Part shown: positions 4,548 to 57,650 of the stretch, piece after piece
Numbering within the stretch: position 1 is the stretch's first letter
How the letters are laid out: every line of letters begins with the position of its first letter
Source: Escherichia phage A4
Sequence record: ON286972
DNA: 64,000 bases
Strand: one strand, 5' to 3'
Made by a program: the position numbers and the translations under genes
Notes under the pieces: generated by a model
The model's input: the letters and a program-made list of their open reading frames with translations, nothing else
Told to the model about the DNA's origin: nothing
Database searches by the model: none

Positions 4548-4576
4548 TTGACATTAAATGTGTTCATTGCTATAAT
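4548..4576 (+). promoter_or_regulatory. sigma70-type promoter (TTGACA-17-TATAAT)
   Basis: TTGACA 4548-4553, 17-bp spacer, TATAAT 4571-4576, ~30 bp upstream of ORF 4609. Confidence 0.55.
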
Positions 4577-13529: not shown

Positions 13530-13980
13530 TTTAGTTAATGGGGAGGGAGTTAGATGCTCCCTTTTTGTTTCAGGGTGTAGCCACGGATGTGAAGAATGCT
13601 TCAACGAAAAAGCATGGGATTATCGCAGTGGTTCAGAATTCAGTACTGAAACAGTTGAAATCATCCTGAATGAACTTAACAAGCCATATGTACAAGGATT
13701 ATCCCTTTTAGGTGGTGATCCATTGATGCCAAAGAATATCAGTACTGTTATTGAGTTATGTAAAGTAGTAAAAGAAAAATATCCAAATAAAGATATTTGG
13801 TGCTGGAGTGGTTATACTTTAGAGGAAATAATAAATAATCATGCCTCCGCAATACTAGAGTACATTGATGTATTAGTTGATGGTAAATTTATTCTTGAAG
13901 AAAAGAATTTAGAATTACCATTTAGAGGCTCTAATAATCAACGTATTCTTCGTAAAGGAGTAGATTATGCGTTATCTTGA
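13501..13980 (+). CDS. nrdG: anaerobic ribonucleotide reductase activating protein (radical SAM)
   Basis: GEGVRCSLFVSGCSHGCEEC radical-SAM CxxxCxxC-like cluster; next to nrdD. Confidence 0.75.
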   Translation: MNYQTIIKDDLVNGEGVRCSLFVSGCSHGCEECFNEKAWDYRSGSEFSTETVEIILNELNKPYVQGLSLLGGDPLMPKNISTVIELCKVVKEKYPNKDIWCWSGYTLEEIINNHASAILEYIDVLVDGKFILEEKNLELPFRGSNNQRILRKGVDYALS

Positions 13981-14125
13981 TATTATTTCTGAAAAGATAC
14001 AGAAACGTGGAAATGAGTGGGTTGTTACTGACCACACAGGGAAGAAAGTTCTCGGTCGTCACCCAACCAGAAAAGAAGCACTTAAACAATTAAGAGCAGT
14101 TGAATTTTCTAAACACGGCGGTTAA
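13967..14125 (+). CDS. small hypothetical protein (52 aa)
   Basis: ORF below track cutoff; AAAGGAG 8 nt upstream; followed by terminator. Confidence 0.3.
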   Translation: MRYLDIISEKIQKRGNEWVVTDHTGKKVLGRHPTRKEALKQLRAVEFSKHGG

Positions 14126-14131
14126 TATGAA

Positions 14132-14156
14132 GAAGCACCCTTTGGGTGCTTTTTTT
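14132..14156 (+). terminator. rho-independent terminator
   Basis: AAGCACCC-TTTG-GGTGCTT then TTTTTT. Confidence 0.6.
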
Positions 14157-14163
14157 ATACTAT

Positions 14164-14171
14164 TATAAATA
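14164..14171 (+). promoter_or_regulatory. T4-type late promoter-like TATAAATA
   Basis: exact TATAAATA ~30 bp upstream of tail-fibre gene start. Confidence 0.35.
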
Positions 14172-14202
14172 CACTATGGATATCTAGATAAAAGGGATAT
14201 AT

Positions 14203-16887
14203 ATGGCAAAGAAAATATATGGTGGCATTGATGTTACACATAATGTAACAGTCAAAGGTAAGAGAAGTGTTCAGAGCATCAATGATAACGTATTTGATGA
14301 AAATGGCAATCTCACAATAGATGCATATACACAAGATGATATGCTGGAAATGGTTGGTATGTTACCCATTTCTCGTTATGGTACACAAAACTATCTACCT
14401 GCTGGTGTCAATGGTACAACAGTTGGTTCTTCAGAAAATACTAAATCCAGAAATACAAAATTATTTTTGGAAGATGATAACACTTTAGTAATGCTACGTC
14501 CTGGTACAAATGGGAGTACACAAGGGGTTTATTATAGTTATATGACCCAGGCGGTTGGTACAACAAATACAAGTCGTATGGTTAATACTACTCGTGCATA
14601 TAAACCAAATTATTTTGGTGATTATTATGCATACCATTTATATTCATGTAGTGATGATATTACATGTGGTATGGCAAGTAATGGTTCAATTAATAAACTT
14701 TTTGTATCCGTTAATAATGGCACAATGAACGATGCAATGCATACCGGAATTTTAATTGATGACTATGCTTCAGTTAGGCCAATTGGTGAAGTACAATTTG
14801 TTATTCGTGCAGAAGATGGTGCATTATACTTTTTCAGTTTAGATACACCAAGCAATACTCTTAAAATATCAGTGGTTAAAGTTACTTTTAGTCCAAGTAA
14901 TAACCCAGGTGGTGGTACTTATAGTGTTACTAGAATTACTGGTTGGGCCACAAGAACTTTTTATAATGCAATGGTATATGATGACAATATTGTTCCAACT
15001 ATGAAAATAAATTCAACAAATACCAATGATAATCCATACGTTTTAATTCCAAGTGGTATTATTGGGTTTGGTATTTATATGACAGACCCAGATTTATATG
15101 TTGCACAGAAATCAGGTACAACTACATTTAAATTTAGATTATGTGGCGATATGTGGATGACTAACGGCAGATATGATATACGACCACAACACAGTTTTAG
15201 TATGACTTTTGATATTGCTACTAAGCAATGTGCATTGGATAATATGACAACTACTACACCAGTTGCTGTTTATGATAATGGTACAAGCATGAATGAATCT
15301 GGTCCATGTTTAACAACTGACCCGTTTTATCTTCACGCAGGTGGACGTAACATTTTCAGTAATTATTGCTATGTTCCATCAACTGGGGATGCGTTTTGCT
15401 CATTTTCACCAAACCTTGCAGAAGCATTGAATATATCATATGCAAAATACCCACCCAAATCATTATTTGATTTAATGGATGTTAGAAGTGTATCGGCAAC
15501 TGATTTTATTAATGGTGTCGTATCACCAAGATTTGGTTCAGCAGTTGGTTCATTCCAAGTGGGTGTGGAGTTATTACCAAATAACAGTACTAAGCAATAT
15601 TCAAGACGTTCAGGTGATGGTCGTTTTTATCCATCCTATGCTGTACATAAAGCTACCCCGAACTTTACATTTAAGTCTCTAGACTATGGTAATGTTCTTG
15701 GCTATGAACCAACACCAGACCGAGCGTTTATAACTACACCAGAATCTAGAATTTTTATAAGTTCAATTTCTGGTTCAACGGTAACGACTAATGGTGGTGT
15801 TTTGGTGGCTGATAATAGAACATCAACGCCAATTAGTTTTGATTATAAAGGTAATGTACTGAATAATGGTACAATCAGTATGTCACAAGATATAATGAAT
15901 TCCATTAGAAATTCCGAATTTGCTAAAGTTGCTAGTTCATGGAATATATCACCAGCATCAATAAAAACATTATCTGTATTTGTTCCACAACAAACTGATA
16001 TTCCTGTTTTTGGTGTTCTTGCAGCATCTACTACAGCCCGTGGTCTATATATTCGAGTTGTTGAATTGAATGTCAATACAAGAACTGGTGATATTACAAC
16101 ATGGTCGTTCAAACGTTTAGTACATGAAAGTGTTCAAGCTGGGGATTACAAAACAGATACCGCATATCATCTTGATAGTGGAAGTATTGGTATTACTATA
16201 TATGATGCGGGTTCTTTCTACTTCATTGGTGGTGGTATTCCTGGTTTCTTTAATACAGTTGGTAATACAAACTCTCCATTTTTCCGTGCTACAGTGGATA
16301 AAGCGACAGCCCAATTTAATAATTTCCATATAGCTGGTGCACGTCCGATCTATGCATTAGATGGTCAACCATTCGCTTTACCTAACATTGGGTTTGGTAT
16401 TCTTCAAAGTATAGATAATAATAACAAAACAATTTTTAGAACATATGGTACAACATTAGCGGATTATAATGCATGGACTGATAAAGGAAATCCATTTATA
16501 TGTCTTGTTTCCCAAGATGTTGCTCAAGGTTTTATTATATACTTCACCGAAGAGACACCAGTACTGATATCCGGTAAACACTATACATTACCAATATCAA
16601 ATATAGATTTAACAACTGTGAAAGCAAATCCTGCCAATACTACATTTTATGTGTATATTAAATTAGTACAGGGTATTGCAAACTATCATATATCAACAAC
16701 TGAATTAGCTGAAACTCATTCAATATTCTGGATTGGTACAGTGAAAACTGATAATTTACAAATAACCGAAATTAATATAGAAAAACGTTCTCGTTTAGAC
16801 CTGTTTGGTTCATCATTCAACGCTGCCGGAAGTTCCTTCCCAGTAAGTTCTGGGTTCCCTTCAAGTTCTGGTAATGTGAATTGGTAA
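14203..16887 (+). CDS. tail fibre protein
   Basis: 894-aa Ser/Thr/Asn/Gly-rich; C-terminal module shared with 16898-17488 and 17499-20240. Confidence 0.55.
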   Translation: MAKKIYGGIDVTHNVTVKGKRSVQSINDNVFDENGNLTIDAYTQDDMLEMVGMLPISRYGTQNYLPAGVNGTTVGSSENTKSRNTKLFLEDDNTLVMLRPGTNGSTQGVYYSYMTQAVGTTNTSRMVNTTRAYKPNYFGDYYAYHLYSCSDDITCGMASNGSINKLFVSVNNGTMNDAMHTGILIDDYASVRPIGEVQFVIRAEDGALYFFSLDTPSNTLKISVVKVTFSPSNNPGGGTYSVTRITGWATRTFYNAMVYDDNIVPTMKINSTNTNDNPYVLIPSGIIGFGIYMTDPDLYVAQKSGTTTFKFRLCGDMWMTNGRYDIRPQHSFSMTFDIATKQCALDNMTTTTPVAVYDNGTSMNESGPCLTTDPFYLHAGGRNIFSNYCYVPSTGDAFCSFSPNLAEALNISYAKYPPKSLFDLMDVRSVSATDFINGVVSPRFGSAVGSFQVGVELLPNNSTKQYSRRSGDGRFYPSYAVHKATPNFTFKSLDYGNVLGYEPTPDRAFITTPESRIFISSISGSTVTTNGGVLVADNRTSTPISFDYKGNVLNNGTISMSQDIMNSIRNSEFAKVASSWNISPASIKTLSVFVPQQTDIPVFGVLAASTTARGLYIRVVELNVNTRTGDITTWSFKRLVHESVQAGDYKTDTAYHLDSGSIGITIYDAGSFYFIGGGIPGFFNTVGNTNSPFFRATVDKATAQFNNFHIAGARPIYALDGQPFALPNIGFGILQSIDNNNKTIFRTYGTTLADYNAWTDKGNPFICLVSQDVAQGFIIYFTEETPVLISGKHYTLPISNIDLTTVKANPANTTFYVYIKLVQGIANYHISTTELAETHSIFWIGTVKTDNLQITEINIEKRSRLDLFGSSFNAAGSSFPVSSGFPSSSGNVNW

Positions 16888-16897
16888 TGGAGATAAT

Positions 16898-17488
16898 ATG
16901 GCTTATAAATTTAGATCTGATGTGGAAGCGTATGCTTCCGTTAAATCACAAGGAAAAAATACTGGGACCACGATAACTGATCGTTCTGGTAATGTGTATC
17001 AAGCTGATGCTAATGGGAATGTTGATGTACCACTCATGAGTACAGATGATGTGAATTACATTACCAGTTCCTTTCCGTTATCACAATTTGGTTCACTTTA
17101 CAGTACTGAACCATTGGGTATTTCTGCTGCTGGTTTCAATTTAACTTTCAGTAAAGAATTACCATTGTTCATGGCGGGAGCGGTTTATACCCTCCCTGCT
17201 AAAACAATAACGGACCCAGGAGTTACTGGAACTAATATTGAAACACATTATGTATATGTTATATTAGATGTTGGGGTAGCTGACTACCTCATTTCTAAAA
17301 CTCAACGCCCTGAAAGTAGTGTTAATATGTACATAGGACAACTGACAGTTTTCCCAGATGGCATTACAGGGGTCAGTATAAATAAAGTGTCAAGATTTGA
17401 CGACTTCAGAGTAAGTGCTACAAAAATTGGTTCAGCTATCCCTATCAGTTCTGGTACACCAGATGTGAATAGTGGGACAGAATGGTAA
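16898..17488 (+). CDS. tail fibre-related protein (shares fibre C-terminal module)
   Basis: 196 aa; C-terminus ..SRFDDFR..AIPISSGTPDVNSGTEW parallels the two large fibre proteins. Confidence 0.5.
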   Translation: MAYKFRSDVEAYASVKSQGKNTGTTITDRSGNVYQADANGNVDVPLMSTDDVNYITSSFPLSQFGSLYSTEPLGISAAGFNLTFSKELPLFMAGAVYTLPAKTITDPGVTGTNIETHYVYVILDVGVADYLISKTQRPESSVNMYIGQLTVFPDGITGVSINKVSRFDDFRVSATKIGSAIPISSGTPDVNSGTEW

Positions 17489-17498
17489 AGGAATATAT

Positions 17499-20240
17499 AT
17501 GGCTTCGAGACGAATTATAGGAAACGCAGAAATACTAGGGAATTTGAAAATTAATGGAAAGTATGCATTACGTTCCTTTAATGGATTCCCTGCTGATTCT
17601 GCTGGTAATATCACTTACCAATATTATGACAAAGCGGAAGTGGATCAAATGTTTGATATGCTTCCTGTTTCAAGGGTAGGTGATCAAGATTACCTACCGA
17701 TGAGTATTAACGGTACATTTGAAGGTGCTTCTTCCTTTTCATTTGCAAAAATAATGCAACCTTGTATCATTGAAAATGATGGTACTGGTGTAATTTTACG
17801 TGCAGGTACAAATGGAAGTTCTTATGGTTTCTATTATGCTTATATAAAAAATATAAGAGATATAGAAACATTAACTCAAGATAATATAATTACAACCAAC
17901 ACGATGTATAGACCTTCTGTGCTACCAAGTACTGATTACATTTATGAATTTTATGGGTCAAATGCATATGAATTACTATTTTGGGAATCAACTGATAGAG
18001 CATCATACTACCTTACATTAACAAATGAAACATTAAATGAATCAGCACACAAACATTGCAGAATTCCAAAAACAGCAATAACAAATAAACCAATCTATGC
18101 ACACATCGTAAATGATTCAGTTTATATATGGTGTATGGATTCAAGTGTATTGAGTAGTGTTCGCGGGTGTGCATTTATCATATACACAGTACCTTTAACT
18201 GCATTTAATACTGGTTCAGTTTCGACAGTAACACAGATTAGTGGTTATTCAGGAAGAACTATAAGAAATGTAACATACACTGCATCTAATAATATTCGTG
18301 TTTATGATAGTTATTCAGCGTTGGGTTCAGGTGGTGATGCACTAATAGCATATGATAATGGTGTTTCCAGAATAGATTATTGGGAAAATAACGCATTTAA
18401 TACCCAAGCAGTTCTTAGTCCAGATGGTACAAAAATAAGAGTAGCGATATATCCAGGGTTTCGTGTCTTAACCGCAACAAAAACATCTGGTGTATATGCA
18501 CTTGGTATCAGCTTTACATATGATATCAGTACTAAAACAATGACACTTGACGGTTCTGAACGTGGTCCAATCAGAGTATCAGCTAATGCATCAACTGGTA
18601 GTATAACAGTGAGTAACCCGTTTTCAATCAATATGGAAAACTTTACAGGGTTTTATGATGGTGCACTTGGTAACTATGGTTCAATCTGTCAAACTTCTGA
18701 TGGTTTTGTTTTCACTACCAAAGCAAGATGGTCATCCATGCCGACCTATGCAGTACAAACATACAAAGTTTCTGGTACACCTTATGATAGTTGGGTTGCT
18801 AAAACACGTACTGGTAGTAATTTAAAACGCGTAGAAGTAATGCCCGTTTATGGTTCACCTGTAGGTGAAAACTTAATAGGTGTTCGTTTCGTTGATAAAC
18901 GTAAGATACTTGTTGCATGTTCTGGTACTGCTGATGGAATTTCTTATGGTTATGATAGTACAGTTTTTACTGAAATAGGTGAGAATCCAACTTATAGTTA
19001 TAAAAACTTGGAACAAAATACCACAATGAATGGTTTTGCACCATCAGGTAATAGACACTATTTAAGTACTGATTACAAATATGCAGGTATGGTAACATTG
19101 GTTGATGCCAATGGAAATGTCAGCACTTATGGATCTTCTTTAATAGAAGGTATCGATAAACCAGCTTATGGAAAATTCGACCCTGTTACAATGGACTTTA
19201 ACAGTGATAGATATGAAATTTCAGGAACTACATTATCAGGTATAGGTTATAATGCCGTTGCTAAAGCTGGATTGACTGGAATAACTGAACATAAAACTGT
19301 TTTTTATTATGTACCTGATACTACATATTCTAAATCTATTGCAGTCACTTCTGCACTAAACGGTACTACCAACGTGTGTTATATTATTTTTTCCGAAATA
19401 TCATGTAGTGCACTGGGTACAAGTGGTACTATAATTTTACGTGGTATTAGTGTTGATACAGCAAGATATACATCAATCACGAATACATTCCAAATTTCAC
19501 CAAATGAAATGATCAAACGTTGGGCTGGTATGACTGTTGCTAAGTTTAGTGGTTTTAACTACTTAGGTGTGAACATTTTATATGGCATTGATACCCCAGG
19601 TTGGACTCGTTATCCTAACATGATTGCTAAAGTGAAAAATGGTATTATTTCAAGTCAACGATATATGGAAACAACTTATATTTCAAACGCACAATTTGAT
19701 ATAGGTACAATTCCAGGGATTGGGTTTGGATATTACCAAATGAACAAAAACGATTATCAAACTAAATCAGTTTTTGCTGTATGTGGTACTACTGAAGCAG
19801 ATATGGATAAACTAATATCTGGTAATGAAACGATATCACAGTACTTAGTTGTTGCTTCACAGGATGTGGCACAAGGGTTCAACGTGTACTTTTCACAAGA
19901 AGTACCAGTTTTCTTGGGTGGAAAGTTTGCAAAGATACCACCGACTATGATAGACTTATCTACCATAAGTACTACACCAGATAATTCAACATTCTACATA
20001 TATGCGGTTATGGATAGAGGTACATCTACAGCTTCGTATCAGATATCACTATATCAATTATCAGAAACTATGACATCAACCTACATTGGTAAGATAGTAA
20101 CTGATGCTAATGGTATTGCATCAATCGAGTCTGAAAAAGTGTCCAGATTCTTGCTATACCGCCCAAGTACCTACAATCGTGGTTCTGCTATCCCAGCTAG
20201 TTCTGGGTTACCATCACAATCTGGTACTCGTTGGAGTTAA
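17499..20240 (+). CDS. tail fibre protein
   Basis: start moved to ATG 17499 with AAAGGAATATATATGG, same context as 14203; C-terminal VAQGF..SRF..AIPASSGLPSQSGTRWS. Confidence 0.55.
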   Translation: MASRRIIGNAEILGNLKINGKYALRSFNGFPADSAGNITYQYYDKAEVDQMFDMLPVSRVGDQDYLPMSINGTFEGASSFSFAKIMQPCIIENDGTGVILRAGTNGSSYGFYYAYIKNIRDIETLTQDNIITTNTMYRPSVLPSTDYIYEFYGSNAYELLFWESTDRASYYLTLTNETLNESAHKHCRIPKTAITNKPIYAHIVNDSVYIWCMDSSVLSSVRGCAFIIYTVPLTAFNTGSVSTVTQISGYSGRTIRNVTYTASNNIRVYDSYSALGSGGDALIAYDNGVSRIDYWENNAFNTQAVLSPDGTKIRVAIYPGFRVLTATKTSGVYALGISFTYDISTKTMTLDGSERGPIRVSANASTGSITVSNPFSINMENFTGFYDGALGNYGSICQTSDGFVFTTKARWSSMPTYAVQTYKVSGTPYDSWVAKTRTGSNLKRVEVMPVYGSPVGENLIGVRFVDKRKILVACSGTADGISYGYDSTVFTEIGENPTYSYKNLEQNTTMNGFAPSGNRHYLSTDYKYAGMVTLVDANGNVSTYGSSLIEGIDKPAYGKFDPVTMDFNSDRYEISGTTLSGIGYNAVAKAGLTGITEHKTVFYYVPDTTYSKSIAVTSALNGTTNVCYIIFSEISCSALGTSGTIILRGISVDTARYTSITNTFQISPNEMIKRWAGMTVAKFSGFNYLGVNILYGIDTPGWTRYPNMIAKVKNGIISSQRYMETTYISNAQFDIGTIPGIGFGYYQMNKNDYQTKSVFAVCGTTEADMDKLISGNETISQYLVVASQDVAQGFNVYFSQEVPVFLGGKFAKIPPTMIDLSTISTTPDNSTFYIYAVMDRGTSTASYQISLYQLSETMTSTYIGKIVTDANGIASIESEKVSRFLLYRPSTYNRGSAIPASSGLPSQSGTRWS

Positions 20241-20246
20241 AAAATT

Positions 20247-20276
20247 AAGCCTGTCTATTGACAGGCTTTTCTTTTA
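20247..20276 (+). terminator. rho-independent terminator
   Basis: 9-bp stem AAGCCTGTC/GACAGGCTT, 4-nt loop, T-rich tail. Confidence 0.55.
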
Positions 20277-20286
20277 TCCGTATAAT
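20258..20286 (+). promoter_or_regulatory. sigma70-type promoter (TTGACA-17-TATAAT) overlapping terminator hairpin
   Basis: TTGACA 20258-20263, 17-bp spacer, TATAAT 20281-20286. Confidence 0.5.
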
Positions 20287-20308
20287 GCTAAAAAACTAGG
20301 AGGAAACT

Positions 20309-20869
20309 ATGGTACAATCACGTTTTAGACCACCGCTGTCACCAGCACAGTTACAACGTTTAAAAGAAAAAGAGCAGCACTTTCAGAATACCCTAGTAGT
20401 TCGTTTGCTATGCAAAAGTGTAACTCTTAAAGATTTTGTGAAAACCGATAATGATCGTAAATCACTTATCGAACTTAAGTACAAGTTAAGTAAGCATAAA
20501 CTATATGGATTACTGGCAGAATACACCCAAAATCCATTCAGTGATCGTTGGTCTATGGTTCAAAAAAAACTGTGGGGTGGTGATGAAGAATTCATACTAC
20601 GCGATTTAAAAAATGCAATCATGTTTAAGGTTGAGTATACACCAGCAGGGATTGAACACAGAACCGAAGAAACTATCATTCAATCAAGAGATTTGTCATG
20701 TGTTGTTTCTTCAAACTTCGGTGTTCATTATGATATGCTTGATGATGATGAGTTAATGATTCTGTTCCATGTCATTATTGGTGCTGAAGATATTAAAGAA
20801 AAGTTATCACAAATTGAAGAAGAACAGCGTAAATTCAAAATCCAAAAGAGAATAACTGATTTATATTAA
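20309..20869 (+). CDS. hypothetical protein, paralog family member 1
   Basis: shares K[ST]D[NE]DR[KR]..L..K..LS[KS]H motif and C-terminal L.LFH with next two genes. Confidence 0.5.
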   Translation: MVQSRFRPPLSPAQLQRLKEKEQHFQNTLVVRLLCKSVTLKDFVKTDNDRKSLIELKYKLSKHKLYGLLAEYTQNPFSDRWSMVQKKLWGGDEEFILRDLKNAIMFKVEYTPAGIEHRTEETIIQSRDLSCVVSSNFGVHYDMLDDDELMILFHVIIGAEDIKEKLSQIEEEQRKFKIQKRITDLY

Positions 20870-20878
20870 GAGGTTACT

Positions 20879-21379
20879 ATGTTTTTCAAAAAGAAAAATA
20901 ATGATCACAAAAGAGAAAATGTAGAGTGGTGTACATTAATTCTTCCAGTACTGATGAAAAGCTATTCTTTAAAAGAAATTATCCGTACTGATGAAGATCG
21001 TAGAACTATACTTAAAATTAAAGAAATGTTAAGTTCTCATTCTCTAATGAAACTAATCACAGACCTAGTTAAAGAACCATACGGTGAACGTTGGTTATAT
21101 GAACCAGTATTCATATATGGTAATCATATCAACCGTGTAAAATTGTTTGATACCGAAACTAAGGTTGATTTTAATGCAGTAACATATTCATCTAAAGATT
21201 ATGATGAAAAACATACATTTGTTTATATTAACGGAGATGCGAATATTCTACCTAAACATGAACAAATGTTTTTGTTTCATTTACTCGTTGCACTTCGTGA
21301 GCTTGAAACAAAGTACAAGAAGTTAGAATACGAGCAGCATAAACTTAATGAATTTAATAAATTAAAAGGATTATACTAA
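20879..21379 (+). CDS. hypothetical protein, paralog family member 2
   Basis: RTDEDRRTILKIKEMLSSH motif; tandem to paralogs. Confidence 0.5.
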   Translation: MFFKKKNNDHKRENVEWCTLILPVLMKSYSLKEIIRTDEDRRTILKIKEMLSSHSLMKLITDLVKEPYGERWLYEPVFIYGNHINRVKLFDTETKVDFNAVTYSSKDYDEKHTFVYINGDANILPKHEQMFLFHLLVALRELETKYKKLEYEQHKLNEFNKLKGLY

Positions 21380-21882
21380 TGTTCTTCGGTAAACATAAAG
21401 TAAAAGATGATGGTATTCTTCAGTACTTAGTTGCGTTGATTTTAAACAAAAGTACTTTATTAGTACCTAATATTAAATCAGACAAAGATCGCAGAGAAAT
21501 TATTCAAAACAAATATCTTCTTTCAAAATGTGATCCTGTTATCTATGCATTTTGTAAGTACTGTTCAAAAAACTTGTTCAGTATTCATGTAGATTTTGAA
21601 AGACACGAGAGTAGAACAGATTCTAGGATCAACGTGTATATAATTAATGATTTAAATCGAGGGAATCGAGGGTTCATGTTCTGGATGGACGGACGTGATA
21701 TACGTGTGCGTATTAAAATGTCGGTTGGGTGGAAGGATTTTTCAACTTCTGTATCTGATTATCTTGTACTTCACGCACTATATAACAGTATTACTAACGT
21801 GAAAGATATCGACAAGAAAATTCAGGAACAAAAAGAACTGGATGATGCAAAGAACGAATACTTACAATATTACAGGAGTTAA
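21379..21882 (+). CDS. hypothetical protein, paralog family member 3
   Basis: KSDKDRREIIQNKYLLSKC motif; tandem to paralogs. Confidence 0.5.
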   Translation: MFFGKHKVKDDGILQYLVALILNKSTLLVPNIKSDKDRREIIQNKYLLSKCDPVIYAFCKYCSKNLFSIHVDFERHESRTDSRINVYIINDLNRGNRGFMFWMDGRDIRVRIKMSVGWKDFSTSVSDYLVLHALYNSITNVKDIDKKIQEQKELDDAKNEYLQYYRS

Positions 21883-23525: not shown

Positions 23526-23609
23526 TATTATTGAATATTGGTCTAAATGGGTCTAAAAAATCCACTTAGACCAATAAATACCCAATAATAACTAATTTAA
23601 GGATGGATT

Positions 23610-24239
23610 ATGGCTATTTCCTTTTACACCACAATGGAAGTTACTGGTGTTGTTAAATTCTCGAAAGCTGAATTTAAAAAACCAATATTAACATTTGATA
23701 CATCGTCTTTTAATATTATCAGAACACACGAAATTTCTGGTGCAGATAATCATTTAAGTAATTCAGTGATTACAACACTAGGAACAGATAGCAACCAATC
23801 GTTACAGATTGCTGCGTGGGCTGGGATGACAGAGACTAATAACGGTGTTAAAATACAAGCACGCACAACAAATGACACAAACAGTACTGAATGGGTTACA
23901 TTATATGATAGCTCCAACAGTACTGTGACAGTATTACCACAAGCTGATAGTTACGATATAGATACCAGTACTGGTAATAAAGTTTTTAATTTAACTCTAA
24001 ACAAACCAAACACTACAATTAATATCCTTCCTAATGCTAAAACTCAAGTATATGATTGCACTGTTATCATAGAACAAGGCACAGGTTCAAATCTTGTAAG
24101 CTGGAGTTCTAATGTGAAATGGTCATTCAATCGTCAAGTTCTTCTTTCATATGAACAATCCCAAAAAGATATAATTTCCCTAGAAACCTATGATGGTGGT
24201 ATTACATGGTACGGTGCTCTTATTCGAGCAGGGGTATAA
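23610..24239 (+). CDS. hypothetical protein (Ser/Thr/Asn-rich, possibly virion-associated)
   Basis: 209-aa ORF, composition like fibre proteins. Confidence 0.4.
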   Translation: MAISFYTTMEVTGVVKFSKAEFKKPILTFDTSSFNIIRTHEISGADNHLSNSVITTLGTDSNQSLQIAAWAGMTETNNGVKIQARTTNDTNSTEWVTLYDSSNSTVTVLPQADSYDIDTSTGNKVFNLTLNKPNTTINILPNAKTQVYDCTVIIEQGTGSNLVSWSSNVKWSFNRQVLLSYEQSQKDIISLETYDGGITWYGALIRAGV

Positions 24240-28869: not shown

Positions 28870-28882
28870 TATGTTATAATAG

Positions 28883-28908
28883 GGACTTGAGAAATCAAGT
28901 CCTTTTTT
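28883..28908 (+). terminator. rho-independent terminator
   Basis: GGACTTGA-GAAA-TCAAGTCC then TTTTTT. Confidence 0.55.
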
Positions 28909-28922
28909 AATGGAGAAAATAA

Positions 28923-37976: not shown

Positions 37977-37982
37977 TATAAT

Positions 37983-38012
37983 AAAGGGACAGATTAATTC
38001 TGTCCCTTTTCT
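37983..38012 (+). terminator. rho-independent terminator
   Basis: GGGACAG-loop-CTGTCCC then TTTT. Confidence 0.55.
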
Positions 38013-38027
38013 TATGGAGTTTTAATT

Positions 38028-43086: not shown

Positions 43087-43100
43087 CCTAATAATATAAA

Positions 43101-43130
43101 GGACTTGAGATTATCGAGTCCTTTTCTTTT
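43101..43130 (+). terminator. rho-independent terminator
   Basis: GGACTTGA-GATTA-TCGAGTCC (one wobble) then T-rich run. Confidence 0.5.
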
Positions 43131-43140
43131 CGGAGAACAC

Positions 43141-46327: not shown

Positions 46328-46421
46328 TAAAAAATCAATTAGCTCAAGTCAATTAAATCCACCAATAAATAAGACTATACGAAATATATTCGAATAACCA
46401 ATTATTTTTGGAGGATTTAAT

Positions 46422-49435: not shown

Positions 49436-49443
49436 TATAAATA
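49436..49443 (+). promoter_or_regulatory. T4-type late promoter-like TATAAATA
   Basis: exact TATAAATA ~38 bp upstream of tail-tube-like gene. Confidence 0.35.
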
Positions 49444-49480: not shown

Positions 49481-50164
49481 ATGGCTACTATGCTAGATCG
49501 ATATGGCGTTCCGCTTGCTGGTGGTGGTCGTATTTCAATGAAACAACCAAAAGCAAAATATAAATTCCGTGTAATTTTCTTTGGTTTTGGTGCCAATGAT
49601 GATGGCAACATGATTACACTAGATACAAACACTGTTGGTGCAGTATCTGTATCGCATGAAAACGTAACTGTTCATAGTTATAACAGTTCCGCACACTATA
49701 AAGGCAAATATACTTGGGATGCGATTGAAGTTGCTTTCCGTGATTCAGTTGGTAATGCTTCAGCAAAAGCACTTTACAACCAAATGCGTAAAGAATTCAA
49801 CTACTATAGTCAAGAATCTCGTATGACTGATTCCCAGTTTAAATTTGAAATGTGGATTCAAGAACTAGATGGTTCTAACAGCGAAAATGCAACAAACCTT
49901 TTTGAAGGTACTCTAAGTACTTGGGTTTGTCAGGGTTGCTTTATTGAATCCAGCAACTTTGGTGATTGGGATTACTCTTCAAGCGAAGCACAAGTTATTA
50001 CAATGAGTGTTCAACCAGATGGTTGTGCTAAGTTGGGTCCAAACGGTGAAGCATTCGGTGATGAAGTTACTGGTTTCGGTAACCCAAGTACTGCATCTTC
50101 TATTAGTGGTGCACAAACCAACATTAGTAGTACTACACTACCTGATACAAACTTCTTTGATTAA
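49481..50164 (+). CDS. tail tube-like protein, paralog 1
   Basis: YGVPLAGGGRISMKQPKAKYKFRVIFFGFG parallels next gene; position after sheath. Confidence 0.45.
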   Translation: MATMLDRYGVPLAGGGRISMKQPKAKYKFRVIFFGFGANDDGNMITLDTNTVGAVSVSHENVTVHSYNSSAHYKGKYTWDAIEVAFRDSVGNASAKALYNQMRKEFNYYSQESRMTDSQFKFEMWIQELDGSNSENATNLFEGTLSTWVCQGCFIESSNFGDWDYSSSEAQVITMSVQPDGCAKLGPNGEAFGDEVTGFGNPSTASSISGAQTNISSTTLPDTNFFD

Positions 50165-51038: not shown

Positions 51039-53152
<2,114 letters not shown>

Positions 53153-53180: not shown

Positions 53181-53711
53181 ATGAACAAACTACAACAAAT
53201 TCTAACAGAAAATAAACCTGTATATGAATATCGTGTCAAATTTGCATTTGAACCTAGTACTGAACAATTGAGTAAAGTTACCCAACGTCTAGTAGATCGC
53301 TATGATGCTTTCGAAGTTGGTGCTCTGAAGAAAACTATTTTCATGGAAAAACCACTAGACTTTTATGAACTAGATTGTGGTGAAATCTGGATGTTTGATT
53401 TCAAATGCAATCGTGGCGTACAGTCTAATGTACTAATGTATGAAATTGGAAACCTTCTATCTGTTACTGAAGCACTTATTCGTGTTCGCGGTAAAGATGA
53501 ACCACGTCAAATTGAAATGTCCATCAGTGAAGATGACGTTGATTTTGACGAAATTCGTGTTATCGGAAAAGATTTCGGTGATGCAGTAGATAGTACTGGT
53601 ATTTCTGGTCAAGAACGTGCTGATAAAGCAGTTGAAGACGCAAAAGAAGAGATTAAACGTGATAATAAATACTCTCAATATATGAGTGCTGGTTTTGGTA
53701 AAAAGGAATAA
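53181..53711 (+). CDS. hypothetical protein
   Basis: 176-aa ORF. Confidence 0.45.
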   Translation: MNKLQQILTENKPVYEYRVKFAFEPSTEQLSKVTQRLVDRYDAFEVGALKKTIFMEKPLDFYELDCGEIWMFDFKCNRGVQSNVLMYEIGNLLSVTEALIRVRGKDEPRQIEMSISEDDVDFDEIRVIGKDFGDAVDSTGISGQERADKAVEDAKEEIKRDNKYSQYMSAGFGKKE

Positions 53712-57529: not shown

Positions 57530-57557
57530 TTGACAGTACAGATTAACGTGATATAAT
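57530..57557 (+). promoter_or_regulatory. sigma70-type promoter P1 (TTGACA-16-TGaTATAAT)
   Basis: TTGACA 57530-57535, extended -10 GTGATATAAT ending 57557, A-tract upstream. Confidence 0.55.
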
Positions 57558-57622: not shown

Positions 57623-57650
57623 TTGACAAGCCTGAACGATGTGATATAAT
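57623..57650 (+). promoter_or_regulatory. sigma70-type promoter P2 (TTGACA-16-TGaTATAAT)
   Basis: near-identical to P1, 93 bp downstream; A-tract upstream. Confidence 0.55.

What the first reader, a model, noticed from the sequence alone, without database searches (positions are those of the whole stretch)
14164..20286. Three tail-fibre genes share one C-terminal module; late-promoter motif and terminator/promoter overlap
The 894-aa, 196-aa and 914-aa proteins all end with a similar block (...SRF...[AS]IP.SSG.P..SG..W), suggesting a common attachment or chaperone module with swapped receptor-binding regions. An exact TATAAATA (T4 late-promoter consensus) lies ~30 bp upstream of the first fibre gene and again upstream of the tube gene (49436-49443). 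After the last fibre gene a 9-bp-stem terminator overlaps a perfect TTGACA-17-TATAAT promoter (20247-20286), marking a late-to-other-class boundary.
Basis: partly seen in the sequence, partly recalled or inferred. Interest (0 to 1): 0.4.

Follow-up and report, generated by a model that had tools for sequence, protein, structure and literature searches.

The report
Three paralogous jumbo-phage virion appendage genes
A giant E. coli phage carries one late operon of three related virion proteins, two large and one miniature, that share both their ends; the shared ends probably dock or assemble a low-copy host-recognition appendage, and the promoter and terminator signals around the operon are real but of known types.

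Summary
The window is an Asteriusvirus-like (RaK2-like) jumbo coliphage.

The C-terminal similarity is real homology and covers about 130 aa, not about 35: a beta-sandwich plus a conserved tail ending in Trp. All three proteins also share an N-terminal segment of about 70 aa. The two large proteins are paralogues along their whole length, so nothing was "swapped". The 196-aa protein is a mini-paralogue, N-end plus C-module, without the roughly 700-aa beta-propeller centre.

The module has no Pfam family but occurs in 558 or more protein clusters of jumbo phages, usually as three tandem genes. Orthologues are low-copy virion proteins: phAPEC6 gp323c, and Goslar gp26 and gp28 at about 13 copies each. 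"Tail fibre" is plausible but not shown, and "chaperone" is not supported.

The late-promoter core is ATAAATA. It is conserved in 8 of 8 relatives upstream of the cassette and was already predicted for RaK2-like phages. The terminator that overlaps a perfect sigma-70 promoter is conserved, with compensatory stem changes.

Verdict: an ordinary kind of thing, well resolved, with one interesting untested lead, a three-chain hetero-complex.

The parts
14133..14158 (+). Upstream intrinsic terminator (AAGCACCC-TTT-GGGTGCTT plus T-run) that closes the nrdD-nrdG unit
   Evidence: The hairpin was found and read. A hairpin plus T-run sits at the same place in all 8 related phages: the AAGCACC-type stem in 7, a different stem (GGCTCC...GGAGCC) in EJP2.
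14164..14171 (+). Late-promoter-like TATAAATA (conserved core ATAAATA at 14165-14171), 31 nt upstream of the p894 ATG
   Evidence: The ATAAATA core is invariant in 8 of 8 relatives at the same position although the flanks differ. The same motif was predicted as the late promoter in CBB and GAP32 (PMC5259590).
14203..16887 (+). p894, large paralogue 1: shared N-segment (aa 1-70), beta-propeller-rich centre (aa ~86-750), C-module (aa ~766-860), conserved tail (aa 861-894)
   Evidence: (pLDDT 83.7). The orthologue phAPEC6 gp323c was detected in virions by mass spectrometry.
16489..16884 (+). C-terminal module of p894 (beta-sandwich plus tail ...KRSRLDLFGSSFNAAGSSFPVSSGFPSSSGNVNW)
16898..17488 (+). 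p196, mini-paralogue: N-segment (aa 1-70), then C-module (aa ~75-165), then tail (aa 166-196); no propeller centre
   Evidence: core pLDDT 80-92; fold hits to phage RBP and fibre domains.
17499..20240 (+). p913, large paralogue 2, with the same architecture as p894; C-module at 19836-20237
20247..20276 (+). Intrinsic terminator: 9-bp stem AAGCCTGTC/GACAGGCTT, loop TATT, T-run
   Evidence: On 7 phages 93% of cells are paired, 4 of 9 pairs carry compensatory changes, and 0 of 500 shuffles reach the observed covariation score.
20258..20286 (+). Perfect sigma-70-type promoter TTGACA-17-TATAAT, with its -35 hexamer inside the terminator's loop and 3' arm; it drives orf186 (ATG 20309)
   Evidence: A TTGAC(A/G) -35 and a TATAAT -10 are kept in 7 of 8 relatives; spacing is 17 nt in six of them and about 20 nt to the TATAAT in Munch. 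It is one of four 12/12 promoters in the window, all on the + strand.
49436..49443 (+). Second TATAAATA, 37 nt upstream of the tail-tube gene (49481-50164)
   Evidence: ATAAATA followed by AT(A/T)AAAGA is conserved upstream of the tube gene in 7 of 7 phages, RaK2 and CBB included.

Best explanation
The region 14133-20308 is one late transcription unit of a RaK2-like jumbo coliphage. A terminator ends the nrdD-nrdG unit. An ATAAATA-type promoter, of the T4 gp55 class, then drives three tightly packed genes. A second terminator ends the unit, and its hairpin carries the -35 box of a consensus host-type promoter for the next, hypervariable genes.

The three products are ancient paralogues and low-copy virion proteins. 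Each keeps an N-terminal segment of about 70 aa and a C-terminal module of about 130 aa. The module is a beta-sandwich of the kind found in phage receptor-binding-protein "shoulder" and fibre domains, followed by a conserved flexible tail that ends in Trp.

My reading, which is inference, is as follows:
- The two shared ends are the assembly and docking elements.
- They probably bring the three chains together, or onto one common site, at the periphery of the tail or baseplate.
- The beta-propeller centres of the two large chains face the host surface and evolve fast.
- The 196-aa chain is a propeller-less subunit that fills the third position.

Shown here: homology, architecture, conservation of the signals, virion association of orthologues, and the tandem-triplet pattern. 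Inferred: location on the tail, receptor binding, and co-assembly.
For: Transcription unit:
- Terminator, ATAAATA and Shine-Dalgarno sequence are conserved upstream in 8 phages, and the terminator plus -35/-10 boxes downstream.
- The terminator stem co-varies.
- ATAAATA on the + strand occurs 6-8 times in the ~10% of the window that is non-coding and never on the - strand there. A simulation gives a mean of 2.35 (P=0.036). Copies precede the sheath, the tube and this cassette.
- The literature predicts the same motif and a gp55-like sigma factor in CBB.

Paralogy:
- Pairwise and profile comparisons support it.
- The module HMM hits only these three ORFs in the window.

Fold:
- The p894 model has pLDDT 83.7 and is all-beta, with propeller hits in the PDB.
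- Full-length structural homologues in BFVD are annotated as virion structural proteins, with TM 0.62-0.87.
- The 11 best PDB hits of the p196 model are all chains of phage or archaeal-virus fibre, RBP or baseplate structures (SPP1 gp22 is a related fold of unassigned role). They are cyanophage A-1(L) fibre, lactococcal p2, Bordetella Mtd, SPP1 gp22 and HFTV1.

Virion association:
- phAPEC6 gp323c was found by mass spectrometry.
- Goslar gp26, gp27 and gp28 are estimated at 12.8, 13.8 and 14.3 copies per virion. They lie next to the Peptidase_S74 tail-fibre gene gp25.
- CBB_148 and CBB_149 are annotated as structural proteins.

Host-range locus:
- Against 121Q the cassette proteins are 40-53% identical, while the flanking NrdD and NrdG and the nucleotidyltransferase further downstream are 81-88% identical.
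- RaK2 carries its tailspike cluster at the same position, directly after nrdG.

Triplet pattern:
- Three tandem module-bearing genes occur in 11 of 15 IMG/VR loci and in every annotated RaK2-like locus, and also in Erwinia phage RAY.
- The modules group by gene position into three orthologous lineages. Different lineages have truncated different members.
Against: - No orthologue has been placed in a cryo-EM map. The Goslar and phAPEC6 papers leave the peripheral baseplate, the tail fibres and the hairy whiskers unassigned.
- The fold match of the module is weak (E 0.01-0.08, TM 0.33-0.48).
- The models are globular rather than fibrous.
- The near-equal copy numbers in Goslar carry about 50% error, and unrelated proteins share the same values.
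- Goslar gp27 matches the module only marginally (hhalign probability 15.6%).
- Four IMG/VR loci show only two module genes.
- The NJ tree has no support values.
- Promoter and terminator activity were not measured.
Confidence: 0.6

Rival explanations
1. The three genes encode three independent homo-oligomeric appendages. Each uses the same N- and/or C-terminal module to plug into equivalent sites on the virion, which is the reader's "common attachment module". This would give the phage several alternative receptor binders rather than one hetero-complex.
For: Shared attachment domains among paralogous fibres are well known. In phiKZ, gp131 and gp133-135 share their N-termini (PMC13250141). The two large proteins have strongly diverged centres. 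The cassette is more divergent than its flanks.
Against: A 196-aa protein made only of the two shared ends would then be an appendage with no functional head. The number three and the three orthologous lineages persist across genera, whereas independent binders would be expected to vary freely in number. The Goslar large and small members have near-equal low copy numbers.
Confidence: 0.25
2. The proteins are the unidentified "hairy" whiskers or collar decorations seen on phAPEC6- and CBB-type tails, or other decoration proteins, and not baseplate receptor binders.
For: phAPEC6 shows fibres at three annular positions on the sheath and at the collar. Their genes are unknown, and gp323c is a virion protein of unknown role. 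The CBB authors could not assign the whiskers.
Against: The family is also present in phages that have not been reported to carry whiskers. GAP32 has all three genes and Goslar has gp26 and gp28. The whiskers are about 119 nm long filaments, whereas the models are compact propellers.
Confidence: 0.1
3. The C-terminal module, or the whole small protein, is an assembly chaperone that is removed or left out of the mature particle. Models for this are the Peptidase_S74 intramolecular chaperones and the Tfa/gp38-type fibre assembly proteins.
For: The module sits at the C-terminus in 172 of 188 family members. A small gene lies between two large fibre-like genes. Goslar gp25 next door carries an S74 domain.
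Against: There is no Pfam match to S74, Caudo_TAP or any other family. The small protein is a true paralogue with the same N-end. Goslar gp28, the mini-paralogue, is found in purified virions at 61% coverage. That much coverage cannot come from its roughly 66-aa N-part alone, so the module itself is in the particle. Thirteen family members carry 141-591 aa after the module, so there it is an internal domain.
Confidence: 0.05

Closest known systems
phiKZ tail-fibre paralogue set gp131 and gp133-135 (PMC13250141; gp131 C-terminal seven-bladed propeller, Sycheva 2012 as cited there)
   Same: Both are tandem late paralogues of a jumbo phage. Both share a terminal docking segment and carry beta-propeller domains proposed to bind the host. 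In phiKZ the paralogues assemble into a hetero-oligomeric fibre base, with 12 fibres per virion.
   Different: No sequence similarity is detectable between the module, N-segment or full-length profiles and phiKZ gp131-135. Here both ends are shared, not only the N-terminus, and one member is reduced to the two ends.
Goslar gp26 and gp28 (Chimalliviridae), and PHROGs 3573, 7449 and 26864
   Same: These are true homologues. Goslar gp26 (868 aa) and gp28 (170 aa) carry the module (E 1e-18 and 2e-15) and form the same large-plus-mini pair. They are virion proteins at about 13 copies each. The PHROG matches span the full length.
   Different: The Goslar members lack the conserved tail that ends in Trp; the HMM match stops at position 106-107 of 132. 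All of these families are annotated "unknown function".
Shoulder or beta-sandwich domains of phage receptor-binding proteins (lactococcal p2 baseplate chain 2wzp_A, SPP1 gp22 2xc8, Bordetella Mtd 1yu0-4, cyanophage A-1(L) fibre 8kec)
   Same: These are the best fold matches of the p196 core (probability 0.84-0.99). From my own knowledge, they are trimer-forming domains that dock onto the baseplate or sit at mid-fibre.
   Different: The scores are weak (E 0.01-0.08, TM 0.33-0.48) and there is no sequence similarity. The oligomeric state of this module is unknown.
T4-type late promoters (TATAAATA, gp55) as predicted for RaK2-like phages CBB and GAP32
   Same: The core is the same, there is no -35 box, and it sits upstream of structural genes.
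   Different: The conserved core is the 7-mer ATAAATA. The first T of the T4 8-mer varies. In CBB a gp55-like sigma factor was reported but no gp33 or gp45 homologue.

Membership tests
T4-type late promoter | TATAAATA -10-like element without a -35 box, upstream of late (structural) genes | tested here: met
   Exact 8-mers precede p894 and the tube gene. The ATAAATA core is conserved in 8 of 8 and 7 of 7 relatives. It is enriched in intergenic DNA on the coding strand.
T4-type late promoter | Dependence on a phage gp55-like sigma factor, and a late transcription start a few nt downstream | not testable with these tools
   A gp55-like sigma factor is reported for the relative CBB. I did not search this window for one. 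No transcript data are available.
Intrinsic (Rho-independent) terminator | GC-rich hairpin followed by a U-run, with the stem maintained by compensatory change | tested here: met
   One search shows a 9-bp stem with 5 GC pairs and a T-run. One search shows 93% of cells paired, 4 of 9 pairs with changes on both sides, and slid controls at 15-52%.
Sigma-70 (host RpoD) promoter | TTGACA and TATAAT hexamers with a 17±1 nt spacer, conserved among relatives | tested here: met
   The match is 12/12 with a 17-nt spacer. The two hexamers are kept in 7 of 8 relatives, with 17-nt spacing in six and about 20 nt to the TATAAT in Munch. There are four perfect copies in the window, all on the + strand. Activity was not measured.
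Phage tail fibre or receptor-binding protein | Component of the mature virion | tested here: met
   This rests on orthologues only: phAPEC6 gp323c and Goslar gp26 and gp28. Nothing was measured for this phage.
Phage tail fibre or receptor-binding protein | Elongated fibrous shaft (coiled coil, beta-helix, collagen-like or triple beta-spiral) | tested here: not met
   The AlphaFold model is made of globular beta-propeller domains plus a beta-sandwich. No fibre-repeat Pfam family matches.
Phage tail fibre or receptor-binding protein | Located on the tail or baseplate and binds a host receptor | not testable with these tools
   The evidence is indirect: neighbourhood with Goslar tail-fibre genes, the RaK2 tailspike cluster at the same locus, and fast divergence.
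Peptidase_S74 intramolecular chaperone, or Tfa/Caudo_TAP assembly protein | Sequence match to the family, and removal or absence from the virion | tested here: not met
   No Pfam match at E<=1 for any of the three proteins or for 28 module sequences. The Goslar mini-paralogue is virion-associated.
RBP shoulder-type beta-sandwich fold (p2 ORF18, SPP1 gp22, Mtd) | Structural superposition with significant score | tested here: inconclusive
   Every one of the top 11 Foldseek hits is a chain from a phage or archaeal-virus fibre, RBP or baseplate structure, SPP1 gp22 being a related fold of unassigned role. But E is 0.01-0.3 and TM 0.31-0.48, and only the core of the query model is confident.
phiKZ gp131-like fibre proteins; DUF7941 filament proteins | Sequence homology to gp131-135, or a DUF7941 match | tested here: not met
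   The profiles give only noise on phiKZ 118-160 kb and 185-225 kb. No Pfam or DUF hit was found.

The most novel reading that the evidence does not exclude
The three genes may encode one obligate three-chain complex, for example a heterotrimer held together by the shared N-segments and C-modules. The module is a domain family that Pfam has not curated. The complex would be conserved from RaK2-like phages to Chimalliviridae.

In this reading any one chain can lose its 700-aa propeller and still be required as a structural "blank". Position 2 is truncated in Asteriusvirus and position 1 in other lineages. The complex would be a candidate for part of the still unassigned peripheral baseplate or tail-fibre density of Goslar-type and phAPEC6-type virions.
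Probability: 0.3. Interest if true: 0.6.

Novelty: new member of a known kind. Interest (0 to 1): 0.38.

Why it matters
Jumbo-phage tails are the least resolved part of these virions. The 2026 Goslar and phiKZ structures and the phAPEC6 study all leave peripheral baseplate, fibre or whisker density without assigned genes.

This cassette defines a widespread protein family with no curated domain. It has a clear architecture (N-anchor, propellers, C-module, tail) and a conserved three-gene organisation. That gives structural biologists specific candidates to fit into those maps.

It also gives phage engineers a bounded unit, from promoter to terminator, to swap when testing host range in Asteriusvirus phages. 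The regulatory signals add comparative support to promoter classes that were predicted for RaK2-like phages but have not been mapped experimentally.

Tried and rejected
1. Sequence searches of the PDB with single proteins and with four profiles found nothing credible.
2. Pfam gave no family for the proteins, the module or the N-segment. The only hit was a sub-threshold DUF5484 match.
3. I tested homology to phiKZ gp131-135 because those are propeller-bearing fibre paralogues. No signal appeared.
4. The C-terminal extensions that follow the module in 7 of the 13 longer relatives gave no Pfam hit, so they do not show which end is distal.
5. An hhalign comparison of the two halves of the propeller region found no internal duplication.
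6. I looked for Goslar gp26 and gp28 module peptides in the stored supplement. The file is truncated alphabetically, so the result is inconclusive.
7. The TATAAATA inside p196 at 17377 was considered as an internal promoter for p913. I rejected it: it is the codons S-I-N-K and is not conserved in EJP2, 121Q or Munch.
8. The search for related loci with the 54-sequence alignment failed because no stretch was conserved enough. The 3-sequence alignment worked.
9. The word-indexed protein search with the module profile returned only 16 proteins. The exhaustive search was needed to see the breadth of the family.
Full report
**Identity of the window.** The region 14164-20286 is 91.7% identical over its whole length to Escherichia phage ph0011, a 348-kb Asteriusvirus. 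Only one other phage record gives even a short megablast match. The flanking nrdD-nrdG region matches 52 records of RaK2-like jumbo phages. So the window comes from a RaK2-like jumbo coliphage. In ph0011 the three genes are annotated as hypothetical proteins. In EJP2 and fHe-Yen9-04 some orthologues are called "minor tail protein".

**Checking the observation.** Every coordinate holds.
- TATAAATA lies at 14164-14171, 31 nt before the ATG at 14203.
- A second TATAAATA lies at 49436-49443, 37 nt before the gene at 49481-50164. That gene is the tail tube (phrog_4542, E 1.7e-83), and the gene before it is the tail sheath.
- A 9-bp hairpin with a T-run lies at 20247-20268.
- TTGACA (20258-20263), a 17-nt spacer and TATAAT (20281-20286) overlap the hairpin.
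- The proteins are 894, 196 and 913 aa.

**The shared module is real and larger than described.**
- BLASTP with composition correction gives p196 against p894 at 36.4% over 121 aa (E 4.9e-18) and p196 against p913 at 39.8% over 123 aa (E 1.4e-21).
- The two large proteins align end to end, at 25.7% over 959 columns (E 1.1e-55) (alignments).
- A profile of the first ~80 aa of large family members matches a profile of the first ~72 aa of small members, with 99.6% probability and E 1.3e-24.
- The architecture is therefore N-segment (~70 aa), centre (~700 aa, large members only), C-module (~95 aa), then a conserved tail (~35 aa).
- The 196-aa protein is a paralogue without the centre. Nothing has been swapped; the centres of the two large proteins have diverged.

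**Structure.**
- AlphaFold2 with a 36-sequence alignment gives p894 a confident all-beta model (pLDDT 83.7, pTM 0.79). Only residues 1-25, 42-58 and 864-894 are of low confidence.
- Foldseek against the PDB returns generic beta-propellers: DPP4/8/9, WD40 tandem propellers, the phi11 receptor-binding protein, fucose lectins, GH43 enzymes and sialidases.
- Against BFVD the whole architecture recurs in proteins of Serratia phage BF, CBB ("structural protein"), Erwinia PhiEaH1 and Joad, and SEGD1 ("virion structural protein"), with TM 0.46-0.87.
- The p196 model is confident only in its core, residues ~70-165 (pLDDT 80-92). This core is the module.
- The best PDB matches of the p196 model are all chains from phage or archaeal-virus fibre, receptor-binding-protein or baseplate structures, apart from SPP1 gp22, a related fold whose role is not assigned. 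They are the cyanophage A-1(L) tail fibre, a 266-residue chain of the lactococcal p2 baseplate, Bordetella Mtd, SPP1 gp22 and the HFTV1 fibre.
- Those matches have high Foldseek probability but weak scores, with E 0.01-0.3 and TM 0.31-0.48. I take this as suggestive, not as proof, that the module is a docking or oligomerisation beta-sandwich of the RBP-shoulder kind.

**Breadth of the family.**
- An exhaustive HMM search with the three modules finds 558 cluster representatives at E<=1e-3 and 371 at E<=1e-10.
- In 172 of 188 retrieved proteins the module is at the extreme C-terminus. In 13 it is followed by 141-591 further residues.
- The consensus is ...SQDVAQGW.VYFTEETPV..NGK.YTLP...IDLTTIKANPANKTFYVYV...G.A.Y.IS...AE....MYIGT..T....I..I...KV.R...YR.S....GSAIPVS.G.P......W.
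- Neither the module nor the N-segment has a Pfam family. The PHROGs that match are of unknown function. No relative has a solved structure detectable by sequence.
- tblastn finds the module in 106-189 phage records. All listed records are jumbo phages, from RaK2-like genera and from Chimalliviridae and relatives: Goslar, the SPN3US-like SEGD1, RAY, OBP and EL-like phages.

**Are they virion proteins, and tail fibres?**
- phAPEC6 gp323c is the orthologue of p894 and lies directly after nrdG. It was found in purified virions with 4 unique peptides. The other two genes were not annotated in that record, so they could not have been detected.
- In Goslar, gp26 (868 aa) and gp28 (170 aa) carry the module.
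- Table S4 of the Goslar preprint estimates 12.8, 13.8 and 14.3 copies per virion for gp26, gp27 and gp28. The neighbouring tail-fibre proteins gp25 (Peptidase_S74) and gp29 are at about 87 and 75 copies.
- Coverage of gp28 is 61%. By my arithmetic that is about 104 of its 170 residues, more than its roughly 66-aa N-part can supply (sequence). So the module itself is present in particles.
- These data argue for a low-copy structural role with six- or twelve-fold multiplicity. They argue against a removed chaperone and against a capsid decoration.
- Location on the tail is still an inference. It rests on the Goslar gene neighbourhood and on the late promoter shared with sheath and tube.
- It also rests on fast divergence. 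Against 121Q the cassette proteins are 40-53% identical, while NrdD, NrdG and the nucleotidyltransferase are 81-88% identical.
- Finally, RaK2 carries its ten-gene tailspike/depolymerase cluster at exactly this position after nrdG, with no homologue of the module there.
- The models are globular, so "fibre" in the strict sense is not supported.

**The triplet pattern.**
- The module HMM hits exactly three tandem genes in ph0011, EJP2, 121Q, phAPEC6 and Munch (large-small-large).
- It hits three large genes in CBB and fHe-Yen9-04.
- It hits RAY_18, RAY_19 and RAY_20 (420, 1163 and 1151 aa).
- Among 15 IMG/VR loci, 11 have three such genes and 4 have two.
- A neighbour-joining tree of the modules groups them by gene position into three lineages across RaK2-like genera. 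The truncated member is position 2 in Asteriusvirus but position 1 in loci L030-L032. The tree has no support values.
- Persistent retention of three distinct lineages, all keeping both ends while any one may lose its centre, is what a hetero-oligomer of three chains would predict.
- phiKZ offers a precedent, where gp131 and gp133-135 share N-termini and form a hetero-hexameric fibre base.
- I found no sequence link to those phiKZ proteins, and co-assembly is untested here. I give it about 0.3.

**Promoter.**
- The 8-mer is not over-represented in the window, at 5 copies against 9.1 expected.
- The 7-mer core ATAAATA occurs 11 times on the + strand. Six to eight of these lie in the ~10% of the window that is non-coding, and none lies on the - strand there. 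A first-order Markov simulation gives 2.35 expected (P=0.036).
- Copies precede p894, the sheath (46365), the tube (49437), the gene at 53181 and the ORF at 23610.
- The core is invariant upstream of the cassette in 8 of 8 phages and upstream of the tube gene in 7 of 7, within otherwise diverged spacers.
- This is the motif already predicted as the late promoter of CBB and GAP32, where a gp55-like sigma factor was noted. So this part is known.
- The TATAAATA at 17377 inside p196 is a codon accident and is not conserved.

**Terminator and promoter overlap.**
- The hairpin keeps 93% of its pairs across seven phages. Four of nine pairs show compensatory changes. No shuffle out of 500 reaches the observed covariation score, and slid controls fall to 15-52% paired.
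- The -35 hexamer lies in the loop and 3' arm. It is kept together with a TATAAT in seven of eight phages; the spacer is 17 nt in six of them and about 20 nt to the TATAAT in Munch.
- The window holds four perfect consensus promoters, all on the coding strand.
- In CBB, RpoD-like promoters were proposed to mark early genes.
- The site is also a mosaic joint. Against ph0011 the cassette is 88-94% identical at the protein level, but the three small paralogous genes just downstream are only 33-40% identical.

**Verdict.** The regulatory elements are of known kinds. The three genes are members of a widespread, uncharacterised family of jumbo-phage virion proteins whose shared ends most likely serve assembly or docking. 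The most interesting open point is whether the three chains form one complex.

Noticed in passing
window 20309-21882: Three tandem small paralogues of 186, 166 and 167 aa (PHROG 18641 and 7868, unknown function) follow the sigma-70 promoter. They are only 33-40% identical to their ph0011 counterparts, although the cassette upstream is 88-94% identical and the nucleotidyltransferase downstream 87%. A recombination joint therefore sits at the terminator/promoter.
   Followed up: partly
window 4548-4576, 20258-20286, 57530-57557, 57623-57650: There are four perfect TTGACA-N16/17-TATAAT promoters, all on the + strand. I judge this far more than chance would give; no shuffle or expected count was computed. 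The phage appears to use consensus host-type promoters repeatedly.
   Followed up: partly
window 28870-28922, 37977-38027, 43087-43140: Recurrent intergenic elements have the form TATAAT(A)-(G)GGAC...hairpin...GTCC(C)-TTTT, followed directly by a Shine-Dalgarno sequence. The -10-like box lies immediately before a terminator-like hairpin. The meaning is unknown.
   Followed up: no
L019 (RaK2 NC_019526, 322764-345682): In Klebsiella phage RaK2 the ten-gene tailspike/depolymerase cluster ORF525-534 begins right after nrdG, where this phage has the three-gene cassette. No homologue of the module or N-segment is found there.
   Followed up: yes
window 17377-17384: A third + strand TATAAATA lies inside the p196 coding sequence, about 115 nt before the p913 start. 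It spells codons S-I-N-K and is replaced by synonymous or different codons in EJP2, 121Q and Munch. It is probably not a promoter.
   Followed up: yes
window 46365-46371, 53145-53151, 23574-23580: Further intergenic ATAAATA cores lie 50 nt before the tail-sheath gene, 29 nt before the gene at 53181, and 29 nt before the ORF at 23610 that precedes a 944-aa tail protein (phrog_2871).
   Followed up: partly
window 13967-14125: A 52-aa ORF (MRYLDIISEKIQKRGNEWVV...) sits between nrdG and the upstream terminator. It is not annotated in ph0011, whose sequence differs here. CBB and RaK2 have small ORFs at the same place.
   Followed up: no
L030-L032 (IMG/VR loci) compared with window 14203-20240: In some uncultivated relatives the gene order is small-large-large, and the small member's module groups with the position-1 lineage. 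Truncation to a mini-paralogue therefore seems to have happened independently in different positions.
   Followed up: partly
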